A program made the position numbers and the translations under genes. This document shows, in pieces, positions 11,556-15,650 of a DNA stretch of 15,650 bases. The stretch lies in the IMG/VR virus record IMGVR_UViG_2703718817_000011. One strand, 5' to 3'. The DNA comes from a virus (lineage: Duplodnaviria; Heunggongvirae; Uroviricota; Caudoviricetes). The stretch's first letter is position 1; every line of letters starts with the position of its first letter. The notes under the pieces were generated by a model, which saw nothing but the letters and a program-made list of their open reading frames with translations, did no database searches and was not told the origin of the DNA.

Positions 11556-11757
11556 AAAGCATCCCCTGAATATTCGTGTTAATCATTCCGGCACGTTTTG
11601 TGATTTCCTGTAATGATTCCCTTGTGGCGACAATTGCTTCATCTGGTAAGTGGTAATTACACACCACGCGACCTTTATCCACATTGACCAGTAGCTGCCC
11701 TGTGAATTTCTCACGAAACTGAATGCGGTTAAGGTCAGTAAGTGACAGATTAATCAT
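11545..11757 (-). CDS. Hypothetical protein (70 aa)
   Basis: ATG 11757 preceded by a strong AGGAGGTG SD and overlapping the upstream stop. Confidence 0.5.
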   Translation of the reverse strand: MINLSLTDLNRIQFREKFTGQLLVNVDKGRVVCNYHLPDEAIVATRESLQEITKRAGMINTNIQGMLYAQ

Positions 11758-12307
11758 GGCGCACCTCCTGACGAATACGGGCGGCAAATACAGCAACACA
11801 ACCGGACGGGCAACGGTTACGCGCTTCGCGTTCCGTCCAGGCGGTTACGTGGATGATTTGATGGTCTGACGCGCCAAAGGCAATAAAGCGCCAGATAAAG
11901 GCTGTTTGAGAATGTACGAGGGCAGGGGTAGTAGCCATGTTGGCAGCCTCCTCAGTGTGGTTAAGATAACCGCCACGCAAAAGGCTAATTTCGCTGGTGG
12001 CGGACTGTACAGGGTTAGCCTTACCGGACACTGAAGAAACCGGCGCGGATTGCTCCGCCCCCGTACAGCCCACCATTGATAAGGTGTGACTATGCGGCAC
12101 AAAAAAACACGCGGGACGCGTGCTGTGCGCTTCAGTTGTTTTCAGGAGGCTAATCCCGACACCCGTTTTATGAGGTGCGCGGGAATCATAGCTATTTTCG
12201 ACACTGGCGATCAACTGGTTTTTTTCTCCGATATTCAGGGCCAGAAAACGCCACACAAAGGCAGTTTGTGTGTGTACAAGGTGTGGTATATGATTTACAG
12301 CAACCAT
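11750..12307 (-). CDS. Icd-like (P4 host cell division inhibitor-like) protein with tandem duplicated domain and internal start
   Basis: ATG 12307 with an AGGAG SD; two copies of an LVH(T/S)QTAF(V/I)WRF segment; second in-frame ATG at 11938 has its own GAGGAGG SD; Icd-like call from recollection of P4-like island proteins. Confidence 0.5.
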   Translation of the reverse strand: MVAVNHIPHLVHTQTAFVWRFLALNIGEKNQLIASVENSYDSRAPHKTGVGISLLKTTEAHSTRPACFFVPHSHTLSMVGCTGAEQSAPVSSVSGKANPVQSATSEISLLRGGYLNHTEEAANMATTPALVHSQTAFIWRFIAFGASDHQIIHVTAWTEREARNRCPSGCVAVFAARIRQEVRHD

Positions 12308-12398
12308 AACGGCTCCTAGTTTACGTTGTTGGTTAGAAGCCCTGCGAGTGGTAACGACACTTGCGGGGCTTTGTCTTTTCATCGATTACCTTGATAAA

Positions 12399-12487
12399 GG
12401 TGTCAGCCACTATATTAGTAACGGGTGTCAGCCACGTCAATAGTGTTTTTCCGTTTTCTTGTGTGTATACTGTCAGCCACCTAATAA
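12399..12487. promoter_or_regulatory. Divergent promoter/operator region with three direct repeats of GGTGTCAGCCAC
   Basis: Repeats at 12399-12410, 12424-12435 and 12470-12480; minus-strand TTGACG-17nt-TAATAT (12435-12440 and 12412-12417) with a repeat in the spacer; plus-strand TATACT (12466-12471) or TTGTGT-17nt-TAATAA. Confidence 0.45.
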
Positions 12488-12501
12488 CGAGGAAATCAGA
12501 T

Positions 12502-12681
12502 ATGGCAACAAAAGCAGTTAATGCAAAATCCAAAAAGCTTGAGGCTCGAGTACCACACGCAATAGCTGATGCTGTAGAAAATTTAAAGGAAGATGGCGAA
12601 AGTACAGGGCAATTTATCGTTTCGGCACTTGAAGGCGAGATCAAACGCCGCCAGCGCCGCAAGGCCAAAGAATCAGAATAA
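12502..12681 (+). CDS. Ribbon-helix-helix (CopG/Arc-like) DNA-binding protein, 59 aa
   Basis: ATG 12502 with a GGAA SD; predicted beta-strand/helix/helix layout (KLEARVPHAIADAVENLKEDGESTGQFIVSALEGEIKRR); divergent from the replication operon. Confidence 0.55.
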   Translation: MATKAVNAKSKKLEARVPHAIADAVENLKEDGESTGQFIVSALEGEIKRRQRRKAKESE

Positions 12682-12738
12682 TCACTATCAGCGCCGTGGT
12701 GTGAGGTACTACGGCGCATTGCTTTACAGGGCAGTATC

Positions 12739-12966
12739 ATGACCAACAACACACTATCACCAATACAAGACACGCAAACGCAAGATGATGAATTCATCCG
12801 GCAAAGGCAGTCAGAAGCCTGCGCCAGACTTGAGGAAGAACTAACCAGAACAAAAATACCACCACCAGCGCCGCGCTTAGTGCCACCAGAAAAATTTGCC
12901 CTTGAAGATTTTGTCGATAAATACCCACGGCGGCTTAAATCCGGCAAAAACCGACCGCCAGGATGA
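12739..12966 (+). CDS. Small protein of unknown function (75 aa), partner of the upstream RHH gene
   Basis: ATG 12739 follows the conserved 44-nt hairpin element; paralogous to 13423..13626. Confidence 0.45.
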   Translation: MTNNTLSPIQDTQTQDDEFIRQRQSEACARLEEELTRTKIPPPAPRLVPPEKFALEDFVDKYPRRLKSGKNRPPG

Positions 12967-13084
12967 GTGCACAAAACCGAACTATGAAACGGATTATTCC
13001 GTTTCCGGGGCGTTTGTGTGTGTATAAAGAGTAAGCTATGCTCTTTTATAGCCATAATCGTTCCTCAATTAATGGTTTGGTTAG

Positions 13085-13128
13085 ACGCCCCGTATGTGTT
13101 CCCATCACTGCGGGGCGTTGTTTTTTGT
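13085..13128 (+). terminator. Intrinsic terminator after the first RHH module
   Basis: 8-bp GC-rich stem ACGCCCCG / CGGGGCGT followed by TGTTTTTTG. Confidence 0.5.
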
Positions 13129-13185
13129 GCTAGTTGTGTGTAATGTGTATATACACATAAACACATTATATGGGGTGTAATTGAC

Positions 13186-13365
13186 GTGTCAACACACAAA
13201 AATGAAAGGCGTGGTAATCCTCCTTTCCAGTTCCGTTTAGATCCTGACTTACGGGAAAAGATGGAAAAAGCACAACAACAAGACGGTGATGACTCTTTAG
13301 CTGCTTGGATAAAACGAATAATCCGAAAAGAATTACAGCAACGCGGTATTGAACCCAAAGAATAA
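13186..13365 (+). CDS. Arc-like ribbon-helix-helix protein, about 59 aa (start uncertain, GTG proposed)
   Basis: Not in the ORF track (below 60 aa with a non-ATG start); hand translation gives VSTHKNERRGNPPFQFRLDPDLREKMEKAQQQDGDDSLAAWIKRIIRKELQQRGIEPKE, resembling P22 Arc; GGGGTG SD-like 8 nt upstream. Confidence 0.5.
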   Translation: MSTHKNERRGNPPFQFRLDPDLREKMEKAQQQDGDDSLAAWIKRIIRKELQQRGIEPKE

Positions 13366-13422
13366 AAAACATCAGCGCCGTGGCGTGAGGAACTCCGGCG
13401 CATTGCTTTACAGGTACACACA

Positions 13423-13626
13423 ATGACCAATAAAGAATCAACCAATACACCATCGCAAAAAACGAACAGAGAGCACGAAAATATGGCGCTCGAGCATGAA
13501 TCAGAAAGATTCGCTCCATGCGCTTTTGTCCTTGATGAGTTTCTAAAAAAATATTCACGTTCTGAACGGATGAAAATGGCAGCACAATACGGCCCCAACA
13601 AGCAAGGTAATTGCCCACCAGCCTGA
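13423..13626 (+). CDS. Small protein of unknown function (67 aa), paralogue of 12739..12966
   Basis: ATG 13423 follows the second copy of the 44-nt element; both proteins start MTN and share a C-terminal F(A/V)L(E/D)(D/E)F..KY.R motif. Confidence 0.45.
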   Translation: MTNKESTNTPSQKTNREHENMALEHESERFAPCAFVLDEFLKKYSRSERMKMAAQYGPNKQGNCPPA

Positions 13627-13699
13627 TAGCGGCTATCATTCCCGTGCTTATGTTTGGGATCACATACACATAAGGCGCAGCAGGTTAATTGTTCAGAAA

Positions 13700-13728
13700 G
13701 GCGGCTCCATATCGGGGCCGCTTTTTTT
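13700..13728 (+). terminator. Intrinsic terminator after the second RHH module
   Basis: GCGGC / GCCGC stem followed by seven T. Confidence 0.5.
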
Positions 13729-13869
13729 ATGCCTGAAAAACCCCAATTTTGTTGTTTTTCAGTTTCACCAGGGCGAACGAATCCCCGCCCACGTTCGGGC
13801 GCATATTCAATCTTCATAGTTATATCTCTGTATTAGTGGATGTGTGGCGACTGTGTGCCGCCAGTCTTT

Positions 13870-14058
13870 TTAGTGAACTGCCTTGCAGCTATCCTTCCAG
13901 GCCAAAACCTCAGATAAAGACCAGCCAACAGAACGCCCACCAAGTTTACGACGTGATGGGAATTGTCCGGCCTTTTCCAGGCGGTAGCGGCATGAGCGGC
14001 TAAGGCCTGTTAGCTTTTCGCATTCTTTTTCACGTATAAACCGATCAGTGCTTAACAC
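13870..14058 (-). CDS. alpA: AlpA-family phage regulatory protein (excisionase/transcriptional regulator-like)
   Basis: 62 aa, apparent GTG start with an AAGGGGG SD; winged-helix excisionase-like sequence (LTGLSRSCRYRLEKAGQFP ... GWSLSEVLAW); downstream of and co-directional with int. Confidence 0.78.
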   Translation of the reverse strand: MLSTDRFIREKECEKLTGLSRSCRYRLEKAGQFPSRRKLGGRSVGWSLSEVLAWKDSCKAVH

Positions 14059-14432: not shown

Positions 14433-15650
14433 TTATTTTATTCTGGTTACTGGTAGCGTGGTTACGTTTTCATGTGTTCCCGCCAGTATCTCCAACCGCT
14501 CCACCCACATATCAAGCGCATTGCGTTTCGCATCAATATAGCGGGAATGGTTGTACACGCGTTGCATTCCTGGCATCTGGTGGCCTGTAAGCTGCTCCAC
14601 GACGTGAGGATCAACGCCTAAATCGTTCAGCATGGTTGTAAAGGTGCGCCGGATGTCATGCAATGACCATTGAGGGTGTTTTAGCCTCCTGTGCGCTAAT
14701 CTGCCGTACTGCGATACGCTAGCCTCCTGTTTCACTTCCCCCAGTAATAAGCCCGTGTGCCTGTTCTGGTCCACCAGCCGCGTGACGAACGGCAGGATCG
14801 CTTCCGGTATGGGCCGGAATATTGCAACCTTCGTTTTGCTGTGCTCCTTCGGAACGGTCCATAGCATTTCGGTAAAATCCCACTCGCTGATCTCCGATAA
14901 CCTCAGTTCTACCGTCCTGGCTCCGAAGACAATCAGGAGGCGGATTAACGCGACGTAGTAAGGAGAAAATATTTTTTTATCCAGCGCCTGCAATAACTCG
15001 CCCAGTTCTTTGGTGCTTAAGACACGTTCGCTTATATCCGGTTTTTTCCCAACGTCCGCCACGTTCAGATCATCGAGAACGTTGCTGATTGCAAAGCGCC
15101 GCCTCCGGCAGAACTTAAGCGCCTGCTTGCATGTCTGTAGCACGAATCCGGCAGTAACAGGTGTTCGCTTTGCCACCTGGTCAAAACAGGCCAGCCAGTG
15201 CCGTAGCTCGCATTTATCCAGCGGCATAGCGCCAATGTACTGTATTACGTGATTATTAAGTCGCCTTTTCAGGGCGATATAATCCACGCGGTTTTCCTTT
15301 ACGTACGACTCAAGCCAGTAGGTGAGCGCATCGCCAACCGTTACCGGCTTTAACGCTTCCTGTACGGCGTAATTCATCTCATGGCGTGGATTTTTCCCCT
15401 CCGCCAGCCATGCGCGACACTGGGCGGCTTTTTCCCTGGCTGCTTTCAGGCTCAGATCAGGATAATTTCCCAGCTTAATACGTTCCGGTCGTGTCTCTCT
15501 TCCCGTTCCTGCCCTGTAAGTGAAATACCAGGTTAATTTCCCTGATGTTAAATATTTCACGCTCAGATTTCCGCCATCGCTATAAAACGTGTTTTTCTCC
15601 GCTGGCTTACCATGAAGTTTCCTTAGCAAGGTATCGCTCAGTTTGTTCAT
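14433..15650 (-). CDS. int: Tyrosine-type site-specific integrase (phage/P4-like family)
   Basis: 405-aa ORF whose start codon is the last three bases of the window; C-terminal catalytic signature HDIRRT ... H ... Y and an N-terminal arm-binding-like domain. Confidence 0.9.
   Translation of the reverse strand: MNKLSDTLLRKLHGKPAEKNTFYSDGGNLSVKYLTSGKLTWYFTYRAGTGRETRPERIKLGNYPDLSLKAAREKAAQCRAWLAEGKNPRHEMNYAVQEALKPVTVGDALTYWLESYVKENRVDYIALKRRLNNHVIQYIGAMPLDKCELRHWLACFDQVAKRTPVTAGFVLQTCKQALKFCRRRRFAISNVLDDLNVADVGKKPDISERVLSTKELGELLQALDKKIFSPYYVALIRLLIVFGARTVELRLSEISEWDFTEMLWTVPKEHSKTKVAIFRPIPEAILPFVTRLVDQNRHTGLLLGEVKQEASVSQYGRLAHRRLKHPQWSLHDIRRTFTTMLNDLGVDPHVVEQLTGHQMPGMQRVYNHSRYIDAKRNALDMWVERLEILAGTHENVTTLPVTRIK

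What the first reader, a model, noticed from the sequence alone, without database searches (positions are those of the whole stretch)
12687..12730. 44-nt hairpin element conserved at 41 of 44 positions inside otherwise diverged paralogous modules
The same sequence (ATCAGCGCCGTGG.GTGAGG.ACT.CGGCGCATTGCTTTACAGG) sits between each RHH gene and its partner, at 12687-12730 and 13371-13414, while the flanking coding sequences have diverged almost beyond nucleotide recognition. It contains a GCGCCG(T)/(A)CGGCGC stem with a 13-nt loop, ending about 9 nt before the downstream ATG. Such selective conservation implies function as an RNA structure (processing site or translational coupler) or protein-binding site, or recent gene conversion.
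Basis: seen in the sequence. Interest (0 to 1): 0.7.

Follow-up and report, generated by a model that had tools for sequence, protein, structure and literature searches.

The report
Conserved linker hairpin between shuffling satellite genes
A 44-base sequence with a hairpin, sitting in the gap between a small repressor gene and the next small gene in Escherichia phage satellites, stays almost unchanged while both neighbouring genes are swapped freely, so it is a real, selected, undescribed junction element whose exact job (most likely in the messenger RNA) is still unproven.

Summary
12687-12730 and 13371-13414 match at 41 of 44 bases (0 expected by chance), while the flanking repressor proteins show no detectable similarity.

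The window is an E. coli phage satellite (cf-PICI/P4-like): int, alpA, then two tandem plus-strand modules, each an Arc-like RHH gene, a 57-nt gap and a small "partner" gene. The isrK/C4/Icd immunity region and replication genes lie to the left.

What the comparisons show:
- The element occurs in 1577 of 5426 complete E. coli genomes, always at this junction.
- It precedes every partner-family gene examined, a family found only in Escherichia and Shigella.
- It is absent after homologous RHH genes in Salmonella, Pectobacterium, Proteus and Xenorhabdus.
- About 13 RHH types and 14 partner types assort freely across it.
- Its unbiased positions vary about six times less than neighbouring synonymous sites.
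- The only consensus structure is one plus-strand hairpin, with weak covariation.
- It is not a canonical terminator, a C4/isrK target or any Rfam family.

Best reading (confidence about 0.45): a cis-acting intercistronic mRNA stem-loop plus ribosome-binding leader of the partner gene. It also serves as a phase-preserving recombination joint.

In passing: the whole module lies antisense inside a long minus-strand frame that is kept free of stop codons.

The parts
12687..12730 (+). Element copy A (44 nt): lower stem GCGCCGT/ACGGCGC, purine-rich GAGG loop, tail ATTGCTTTACAGG containing the weak AGG Shine-Dalgarno of the partner gene
13371..13414 (+). Element copy B (41/44 identical to copy A)
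12691..12717 (+). Hairpin of copy A (11 bp, 5-nt loop)
13375..13401 (+). Hairpin of copy B (6-bp GC core, weakened upper stem)
12682..12738 (+). Full 57-nt (19-codon) intercistronic linker A, from the RHH-A stop codon to the partner-A ATG
   Evidence: The gap is 57 nt in 95 of 97 modules, and 54 or 39 nt in the other two.
13366..13422 (+). Full 57-nt intercistronic linker B
12502..12681 (+). RHH-A, YlcI/YnfO-family ribbon-helix-helix protein (59 aa)
   Evidence: NCBIfam NF041551, E = 1e-16; phrog_949; PGAP annotation
12739..12966 (+). Partner-A, small protein (75 aa) of the FALExFL-motif family
13186..13365 (+). RHH-B, Arc-like repressor (59 aa), unrelated in sequence to RHH-A
   Evidence: phrog_228 Arc-like repressor, E = 1.5e-6; weak NF041551 match
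13423..13626 (+). Partner-B, small protein (67 aa) of the same family
   Evidence: phrog_21027
13065..13817 (-). Stop-free antisense frame (250 codons) running through module B and containing copy B (reads CKAMRRSSSRHGAD)
12333..13055 (-). Continuation of the same antisense frame (240 codons) through module A, containing copy A. It restarts 7 nt after the single stop.
13870..14058 (-). alpA (P4 vis-like regulator), upstream of the antisense frame on the same strand
   Evidence: Pfam PF05930, E = 5e-18
11993..12178 (-). isrK-like (12102-12178) and C4/CI-like (11993-12080) immunity RNAs downstream on the minus strand
   Evidence: Rfam RF01394 at 61.6 bits and RF01695 at 75.4 bits

Best explanation
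The 44-mer is the core of a fixed-length (57 nt, 19 codons) intercistronic linker in a plus-strand operon of Escherichia phage satellites (cf-PICI, PICI and P4-like). The operon encodes an Arc-like RHH repressor followed by one or more small FALExFL-motif proteins.

Most likely it acts in cis in the plus-strand mRNA. A GC-rich stem-loop starts 8-10 nt after the upstream stop codon. It is followed by an unstructured tail that carries the weak ribosome-binding site of the next gene. This arrangement would end and protect the upstream (repressor) message and set how much of the downstream gene is translated (inferred).

Shown here:
- The element is a real, selected sequence.
- It belongs to the leader of partner-family genes.
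- It is the shared homology at which RHH cassettes and partner cassettes recombine in all combinations.
- Its length is always a multiple of three. That keeps both genes in the register that leaves a long antisense (minus-strand) reading frame open.

Inferred, not shown: the hairpin forms in vivo, and it controls mRNA stability, processing or translation.
For: 1. Real and widespread. 2 matches against 0 expected. Found in 1577 of 5426 complete E. coli genomes at 2074 places, always under or beside YlcI/YnfO genes, and in more than 120 IMG/VR contigs.

2. Peak of conservation. Mean pairwise identity is 0.80-0.95 over positions 1-40, against about 0.3-0.4 in the flanks, among 46 diverse modules. 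Positions 1-10 and 26-36 are inflated because the retrieval pattern fixed them.

3. Purifying selection. In 130 close pairs, diversity at the element's unbiased positions is 0.0064. RHH third codon positions give 0.039 and partner third positions 0.025.

4. Tied to the partner gene's leader. Every locus retrieved through partner proteins alone carries a version of it 8-9 nt before the ATG. Locus L267 has three copies, one before each of three consecutive partner paralogues.

5. Structure. RNAalifold finds one hairpin and an open ribosome-binding region. Among 13 stem haplotypes there is one compensatory C-G to U-A change and several C-to-U or A-to-G changes that keep pairing only on the plus-strand RNA.

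6. Recombination joint. 13 RHH clusters and 14 partner clusters occur in many combinations. All four allele combinations occur for sites 14, 21 and 25.

7. Phase. The gap is 57 nt in 95 of 97 modules, otherwise 54 or 39 nt.
Against: - Covariation is weak: 87.7% of cells are paired against 86.1% in shuffles, and the covariation score is reached by 121 of 500 shuffles.
- In the six-pair GC core, about as many haplotype changes break a pair as keep it.
- Copy B's own three differences weaken the upper stem, and its fold is no better than shuffles (z = -0.65).
- Loop and tail are conserved as primary sequence. A simple stability hairpin does not require that.
- Homologous RHH modules in Salmonella, Pectobacterium, Proteus and Xenorhabdus work without the element.
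- No expression data were available.
- Most instances were retrieved with a pattern that fixed the stem, so the unbiased sample is small (19 distinct sequences).
Confidence: 0.45

Rival explanations
1. Backbone or linker remnant only. The 57-nt gap is simply the one piece of shared backbone between two cassettes that each exist as many old alleles. It is kept similar because recombination needs it and keeps spreading it. The only further constraints are a ribosome-binding site and the need to keep the antisense frame open and in phase. There is no specific RNA or protein-binding function.
For: - Cassettes assort freely.
- All four allele combinations occur within 11 nt.
- The element and the partner family are confined to Escherichia and Shigella, so the time depth is shallow.
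- Covariation is weak.
- The gap is always a multiple of three.
- Other short conserved islands exist at cassette ends: the RRQRRKAKESE tail and the PPG-stop end of the partner.
Against: - The unbiased positions of the element are about 6-fold less diverse than adjacent synonymous sites in closely related modules.
- Those synonymous sites are themselves constrained by the antisense frame, which makes the comparison conservative.
- A need for about 20-30 nt of homology does not explain conservation of the loop and tail bases in particular.
Confidence: 0.25
2. Recognition site for a shared trans-acting factor. A protein common to these satellites (most plausibly the partner-family protein itself, autoregulating) or a host factor (including the ribosome, through the GAGG loop used as a standby site) binds the hairpin as RNA, or binds the 7-bp inverted repeat as DNA.
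For: - Loop and tail are conserved as primary sequence: RAGG is present in the loop in 15 of 19 unbiased variants.
- The element and the partner family share the same narrow taxonomic range and co-occur.
- Many partner variants carry an arginine-rich N-terminal stretch, SPARKRRRRK.
- The symmetric change in L266 (GCGCTGT/ACAGCGC) fits a palindromic DNA site as well as it fits an RNA stem.
Against: - The two partner proteins in this window lack the arginine-rich stretch.
- The partner evolves fast (position 1 and 2 diversity is about 0.5-0.8 of position 3), yet the site does not co-vary with it.
- 12 of the 119 distinct module segments keep the hairpin without a partner gene.
- The partner model is low confidence (pLDDT 65), two short helices with no recognisable nucleic-acid-binding fold.
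Confidence: 0.15
3. Minus-strand function. The hairpin acts in the leftward late transcript (alpA to the eta-like frame to icd and replication genes). It would be a translation-sensitive pause or terminator, or the terminator of a P22 sar-like antisense RNA that covers the partner ribosome-binding site.
For: - The element lies inside a minus-strand frame that is kept open from alpA to icd.
- In P4, translation of eta, coupled to the alpA homologue, prevents termination of the late transcript (PMC10111431, section 20).
- On the minus strand the stem is followed by a U-rich run made by the RHH C-terminal codons (UGAUGUUUUUUAUUC in copy B).
- P22 arc-ant is a precedent for an antisense RNA in the gap after an Arc-type gene (from my own knowledge, not checked here).
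Against: - The terminator score is negative on both strands (d = -27 to -48, against +6 and +27 for two canonical terminators in the window; the leader hairpin at 12336-12372 also scores negative, d = -18.5).
- The one-sided stem changes are mostly C-to-T or A-to-G on the plus strand, which would be C-A mismatches in minus-strand RNA.
- No promoter-like site was found on the minus strand inside the 5' end of either partner gene, and that region is not conserved.
Confidence: 0.1
4. Target of the satellite's own immunity RNAs (C4/CI-like or isrK-like), or a product of recent gene conversion between the two copies in this one genome.
For: C4 and isrK lie 500-700 nt away. The two copies are 684 nt apart in direct orientation.
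Against: - Duplex scans rank the two copies inconsistently (rank 25 against about 450 for C4) and no better than many unrelated sites.
- Loop and tail have no shared complementary partner anywhere in the window.
- The same linker is found in single-module satellites in hundreds of genomes, so local conversion is not required.
Confidence: 0.03

Closest known systems
Short conserved boundary ('linker') sequences between exchangeable modules in mosaic temperate-phage genomes (modular theory of Susskind and Botstein; lambdoid phages). From my own knowledge, not checked here.
   Same: A short conserved non-coding stretch sits between two cassettes that each exist as many unrelated alleles. The cassettes are found in nearly all combinations, and crossovers fall inside the linker.
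   Different: Here the linker is a fixed 57 nt and carries a hairpin. It is more constrained than neighbouring synonymous sites. It must also keep an antisense reading frame in phase.
Intercistronic mRNA stem-loops that set differential stability or expression within operons (papBA, puf, malEFG-REP type). From my own knowledge, not checked here.
   Same: A GC-rich stem-loop lies between two cistrons, just after the upstream stop and before the downstream ribosome-binding site. It is not a terminator.
   Different: No transcript data exist for this one. Its loop and tail are conserved as sequence. It is a single-locus element, not a genome-wide repeat (median one copy per genome that has any).
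Phage P22 immI (arc, sar antisense RNA, ant) and P1/P7 immI (c4 RNA, icd, ant)
   Same: An Arc-type RHH repressor gene is followed by a short regulatory gap and a second gene. A C4-family RNA and Icd-like genes are in the same immunity region.
   Different: No sar-like promoter or convincing minus-strand terminator was found. There is no complementarity to C4. The downstream gene is a small protein of unknown function, not Ant.
Phage P4 late leftward transcription: PLL, vis, eta/kil, CI RNA
   Same: An alpA/vis homologue is followed on the same strand by a long frame that runs into the C4/isrK (CI/seqA-like) region. In P4, translation of that frame prevents termination (PMC10111431).
   Different: In these satellites one or more plus-strand genes and the linker are embedded antisense inside that frame. 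The papers I read do not describe this, and I did not see it for P4.

Membership tests
Rho-independent (intrinsic) terminator | GC-rich stem-loop | tested here: met
   A 6-11 bp GC-rich stem on either strand.
Rho-independent (intrinsic) terminator | U-tract immediately 3' of the stem, giving a positive d'Aubenton-Carafa-type score | tested here: not met
   d = -26.8 and -46.7 on the plus strand; -47.6 and -36.5 on the minus strand. Two canonical terminators in the window score +27.1 and +5.9; the leader hairpin at 12336-12372 scores -18.5. Only copy A passes the looser pattern scan.
Target site of C4/CI-type immunity RNA (P1 a2/b2, P4 seqA/seqC) | Extended complementarity to the loops of the resident C4-family RNA | tested here: not met
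   The duplex scan ranks the two copies at 25 and about 450 of 6189 windows, with no shared pairing register.
Any curated RNA family (Rfam 15) | Covariance-model match at or near the gathering score | tested here: not met
   No match covers the element, even at E up to 10.
Lambda-type nut site (boxA plus boxB bound by an arginine-rich N protein) | boxB: a short stem of about 5 bp with a purine-rich pentaloop, with boxA (CGCTCTTA-like) alongside. Features recalled from my own knowledge. | tested here: not met
   The stem is 7-11 bp with a 5-13 nt loop. The tail TGCTTTACA resembles rrn boxA only with gaps, and it changes to TGCTATGCA or GGGTTACA in other variants.
Lambda-type nut site (boxA plus boxB bound by an arginine-rich N protein) | A cognate arginine-rich RNA-binding protein and terminators to be read through | tested here: inconclusive
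   Some partner variants carry RKRRRRK, but the two in this window do not. Nothing on the plus strand beyond the module's terminator needs expressing.
Genome-wide extragenic palindromes (REP/BIME, BoxC) | Tens to hundreds of copies per genome in unrelated intergenic regions | tested here: not met
   Median 1 and maximum 6 places per genome that has any. In the listed hits, 54 of 60 places lie under or beside a YlcI/YnfO gene or its neighbour; the other 6 have no annotated feature under the match.
Module-boundary recombination linker | Conserved short sequence between cassettes that assort independently, with evidence of crossovers inside it | tested here: met
   13 by 14 cassette clusters occur in many combinations. 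All four allele combinations occur for sites 14/21/25. The conservation profile peaks at the element.
Structured cis-regulatory mRNA element | Base pairs maintained by compensatory change beyond what sequence conservation gives | tested here: inconclusive
   4 of 11 pairs show a change on both sides, but the overall score is not above shuffles. There is one clean compensatory pair plus wobble-preserving changes, against a similar number of breaks.
Structured cis-regulatory mRNA element | Effect on transcript ends, stability or translation | not testable with these tools
   No transcriptome or reporter data were available. No paper holding the sequence was found.

The most novel reading that the evidence does not exclude
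The linker is a two-strand switch inside a doubly read region. The RHH-partner operon is embedded antisense in an 'eta-like' frame whose translation (coupled to alpA), rather than its product, lets late transcription reach the replication genes. The conserved hairpin would be the point where rightward (lysogenic) and leftward (induced) expression are coordinated. For example, a factor bound there, or the folded RNA, could stall or release ribosomes or polymerase on one strand while setting partner translation on the other. A weaker variant of this idea rests on one observation: RHH, linker and partner are in one frame with no other in-frame stop, so the hairpin 8-10 nt after the stop codon could promote read-through and give an RHH-partner fusion.
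Probability: 0.1. Interest if true: 0.75.

Novelty: new member of a known kind. Interest (0 to 1): 0.45.

Why it matters
These satellites (relatives of EcCIEDL933 and EcCICFT073) are found in roughly three in ten complete E. coli genomes (1577 of 5426), and the control of their repressor module has not been studied.

- The linker gives a defined, mutable handle on how the Arc-like repressor and the fast-evolving small gene next to it are expressed.
- It shows where immunity cassettes are exchanged between satellites.
- The context found along the way may matter more. A repressor operon sits antisense inside a frame that seems selected only to stay open. This would extend the P4 'translate to avoid termination' mechanism to a large satellite family.
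- That idea can be tested with synonymous stop-codon insertions.

Tried and rejected
1. The single genome-contig scan used CAGCGCCN{14,20}GGCGCATTGC. Taxonomic range therefore rests on the protein searches and on loci from four other genera.

2. C4 or isrK pairing with the element: no consistent or outstanding duplex.

3. Any complementary partner for the loop or tail elsewhere in the window, on either strand: none shared by both copies.

4. Rfam at gathering and at permissive thresholds: nothing on the element.

5. Intrinsic terminator on either strand: negative scores.

6. Coding in the antisense frame as the reason for conservation. The polymorphisms are mostly non-synonymous there (worked out by hand: H/R, T/S, S/N, S/L, one synonymous R). 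The antisense peptide is conserved nowhere else.

7. RHH operator. The copy A loop resembles the TGTCAGCCAC repeats at 10 of 13 positions, but the element is the same next to RHH proteins of unrelated specificity.

8. A short leader ORF (UUG to UGA overlapping the ATG). The UUG is missing in the L266 and L274 types.

9. Partner structure prediction: pLDDT 65, two helices, uninformative. No fold search was run.

10. The search for related loci with the partner alignment returned only close relatives of partner-A.

11. Literature. No paper holds the sequence. Nothing in the cf-PICI or PICI papers I read describes the RHH module or its linker.

12. INPHARED phages: no match.

Full report
**1. The observation**

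The 44-mer occurs twice in the window, at 12687-12730 and 13371-13414, with 3 mismatches. No match at up to 3 mismatches was seen in 200 dinucleotide-preserving shuffles. The repeat finder extends the similarity to 75 nt at 80% identity, spaced 684 nt apart.

Outside this block the two modules align at near-random level. The two RHH proteins give no BLASTP alignment. The two downstream proteins are 25% identical, E = 0.02.

Each copy lies in an exactly 57-nt gap between the stop codon of a 59-aa RHH gene and the ATG of a 75-aa or 67-aa gene.

Copy A folds into an 11-bp stem with a 5-nt loop (z = -2.6 for the 66-nt context). In copy B only the 6-bp GC core and part of the upper stem pair (z = -0.65).

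**2. Context**

The window is an E. coli phage satellite. A tyrosine integrase (14433-15650, minus strand) and alpA (13870-14058, minus strand; Pfam PF05930) lie on the right. The two plus-strand modules are in the middle.

On the minus strand to the left lie an Icd-like/Ash frame, an isrK-like RNA (12102-12178) and a C4-family RNA (11993-12080). Further left come replication and capsid genes.

The segment 12300-13750 is 100% identical to a satellite integrated in tqsA of E. coli RM10466. That satellite carries DUF927 primase, capsid and small-terminase genes, which is the cf-PICI layout. EcCIEDL933, the published cf-PICI prototype, is in EDL933. The EDL933 locus I fetched (L002) has the element.

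RHH-A is a YlcI/YnfO-family protein (NCBIfam NF041551, E = 1e-16). RHH-B matches an Arc-like repressor family.

**3. Distribution**

A 66-nt query around copy A finds 2074 places in 1577 of 5426 complete E. coli genomes. In the listed hits these lie under or beside a YlcI/YnfO gene and the next small gene; 6 of the 60 listed places have no annotated feature. There is no match in 50,697 phage records. More than 120 IMG/VR contigs match.

The partner-protein family (conserved core P..FALExFL.KY.R) was found only in Escherichia, E. albertii and Shigella, in a 5.8-billion-protein search.

Loci retrieved purely through four divergent partner proteins all carry a version of the element ending 8-9 nt before the ATG. 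This includes diverged versions.

The RHH family is broader, spanning Enterobacterales. In equivalent satellites of other genera the homologous RHH gene is not followed by the element:
- Xenorhabdus has a plain terminator.
- Salmonella has a partner-like ORF 3 nt after the stop.
- Pectobacterium and Proteus also lack it.

So the element is specific to the Escherichia lineage. It goes with the partner family at least as much as with RHH. Locus L267 has no RHH but has four tandem partner paralogues, three of them each preceded by a copy. Conversely, 12 of the 119 distinct module segments keep the hairpin while the partner is replaced by AT-rich cargo or a lipoprotein-like ORF.

**4. Selection and recombination**

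Anchored on the element, mean pairwise identity among 46 diverse modules is:

| Positions (element start = 1) | Mean identity |
|---|---|
| 1-40 | 0.80-0.95 |
| -40 to 0 and 41-70 (shoulders) | 0.6-0.77 |
| Beyond the shoulders | 0.3-0.4 |

Positions 1-10 and 26-36 were fixed by my retrieval pattern, but positions 11-25 were free.

Among 130 pairs of closely related modules, diversity at the element's unbiased positions is 0.0064. RHH third codon positions give 0.039 and partner third positions 0.025. RHH first positions give 0.0053, about the same as the element. This argues for purifying selection on the element.

RHH C-terminal halves fall into 13 clusters and partners into 14. They occur in many combinations; for example, one RHH type occurs with eight partner types. 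All four allele pairings occur for polymorphic sites 14, 21 and 25, which lie within 11 nt. This indicates crossovers, or recurrent mutation, inside the element.

The RHH and its 'partner' are therefore not a co-adapted pair. The linker is the junction at which they are exchanged.

**5. Structure**

RNAalifold on 15 unbiased variants predicts one hairpin (10 pairs) and leaves the tail, Shine-Dalgarno region and ATG unpaired.

On 23 distinct sequences, 87.7% of cells pair against 86.1% in shuffles. Four pairs have a change on both sides. The covariation score is not exceptional, being reached by 121 of 500 shuffles.

The 13 stem haplotypes include:
- one clean compensatory change (C-G to U-A, L266);
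- several C-to-U or A-to-G changes that keep G-U pairs only in plus-strand RNA;
- a similar number of breaks.

This favours a plus-strand RNA stem modestly. It does not exclude a DNA inverted repeat.

**6. What it is not**

- It is not a canonical terminator on either strand (d = -27 to -48, against +27 and +6 for two canonical terminators in the window).
- It matches no Rfam family.
- It is not a convincing C4 or isrK target.
- It has no complementary partner elsewhere in the window.
- It is not a genome-wide palindromic repeat.

**7. The antisense frame (found in passing, bears on the element)**

One minus-strand frame is almost free of stop codons through the whole module. In the window it runs 13817 to 13065, restarts 7 nt later, and runs 13055 to 12333. 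It then overlaps the frame 12382 to 11750, which holds the Icd-like, isrK and C4 sequences.

| Test | Result |
|---|---|
| 119 distinct 730-nt segments, this frame | mean 1.4 stops; 59% have none |
| Same segments, other two minus frames | 11.7 and 18.2 stops |
| Same segments, shuffled | about 12 stops |
| Synonymous-codon shuffles, 25 RHH genes | 1 stop observed, 17.8 expected |
| Synonymous-codon shuffles, 20 partner genes | 0 stops observed, 7.5 expected |

In L267 a single 596-codon frame runs from 8 nt after alpA to the Icd-like C-terminus, across four plus-strand genes. One open antisense frame also covers the RHH gene in Proteus, Xenorhabdus and Salmonella.

The consequence for the element is that both plus-strand genes must sit in the same register. 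The linker must therefore be a multiple of three, and it is: 57 nt in 95 of 97 modules, otherwise 54 or 39 nt. This explains the fixed length. It does not explain the conserved bases, because the antisense peptide is conserved only where the element is, and the element's polymorphisms are mostly non-synonymous in that frame (worked out by hand).

**8. Verdict**

The finding is real and the element is very probably functional. It is best described as the conserved leader and linker of partner-family genes in Escherichia satellites:
- a plus-strand stem-loop plus ribosome-binding tail, acting in cis (inferred, confidence about 0.45);
- demonstrably the in-phase recombination joint between two freely assorting cassettes.

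The rivals cannot be excluded without experiments. They are a pure recombination linker (0.25), a shared protein- or ribosome-binding site (0.15) and a minus-strand role (0.10).

It is an undescribed member of a known kind of element, and moderately interesting in itself. The antisense open frame around it is the more unusual feature.

Noticed in passing
window 11750-13817, minus strand; L267 1564-3354: One minus-strand frame is kept almost free of stop codons from just after alpA, antisense through the RHH and partner genes, into the Icd-like/isrK/C4 region. It has 1.4 stops per 730 nt, against about 12 expected. After synonymous-codon shuffling, 1 stop is observed against 25 expected. L267 has a 596-codon example. 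The frame is also open across the RHH gene in Proteus, Xenorhabdus and Salmonella. This fits the P4 eta 'translation prevents termination' model, but with a repressor operon embedded antisense.
   Followed up: partly
window 13165-13192 (minus strand) and 13010-13060: A perfect sigma-70 consensus promoter (TTGACA, 16 nt, TATAAT) points leftward and overlaps the start of RHH-B. Just downstream of it, on the minus strand, is a remnant of an Icd-like 5' end (MAIKEHSLLFIHTQT, compare LVHTQTAF). The two modules therefore look like two immunity regions joined in tandem, and this promoter would transcribe antisense through module A.
   Followed up: no
window 12399-12410, 12424-12435, 12471-12482: Three copies of (G)GTGTCAGCCAC lie between the leftward promoter-like site (12440-12412) and the RHH-A start. 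They are probably RHH-A operators. Module B has different inverted repeats instead (AATGTGTATATACACAT).
   Followed up: no
window 11750-12382, minus strand: A single 210-codon frame contains two Icd-like repeats (VHTQTAFVWRF and VHSQTAFIWRF) with the isrK-like and C4 RNAs between them. The non-coding RNAs are therefore read through without a stop.
   Followed up: no
L044, L049, L290 (AT-rich insert) and L072 (lipoprotein-like ORF MLKLKKHVPMMVALIITIFLLISC): The position immediately 3' of the hairpin is an insertion or replacement point. The partner gene is displaced by foreign AT-rich DNA or another small ORF, and these are the loci where the antisense frame is broken (7-10 stops).
   Followed up: partly
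partner genes: window 12739-12966 and 13423-13626; L267 2258-3247: The partner family evolves fast (diversity at codon positions 1 and 2 is 0.5-0.8 of that at position 3, against about 0.1 for RHH). It is mosaic within the gene, can occur as four tandem paralogues, and has no known function (phrog_21027). This looks like an arms-race gene.
   Followed up: partly
window 12679-12741 and 13363-13425: RHH, the 57-nt linker and the partner are in one reading frame with no in-frame stop other than the RHH stop codon. Read-through of that one codon would give a fusion protein. With 19 codons this is not unlikely by chance, and most stops are TAA.
   Followed up: no
L283-L285 (Salmonella enterica) 2501-2875: In the Salmonella counterpart, a partner-like ORF (with HFGLENLI) starts 3 nt after the RHH stop with no linker. 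The 57-nt linker is therefore an Escherichia-specific addition to an otherwise translationally coupled pair.
   Followed up: partly
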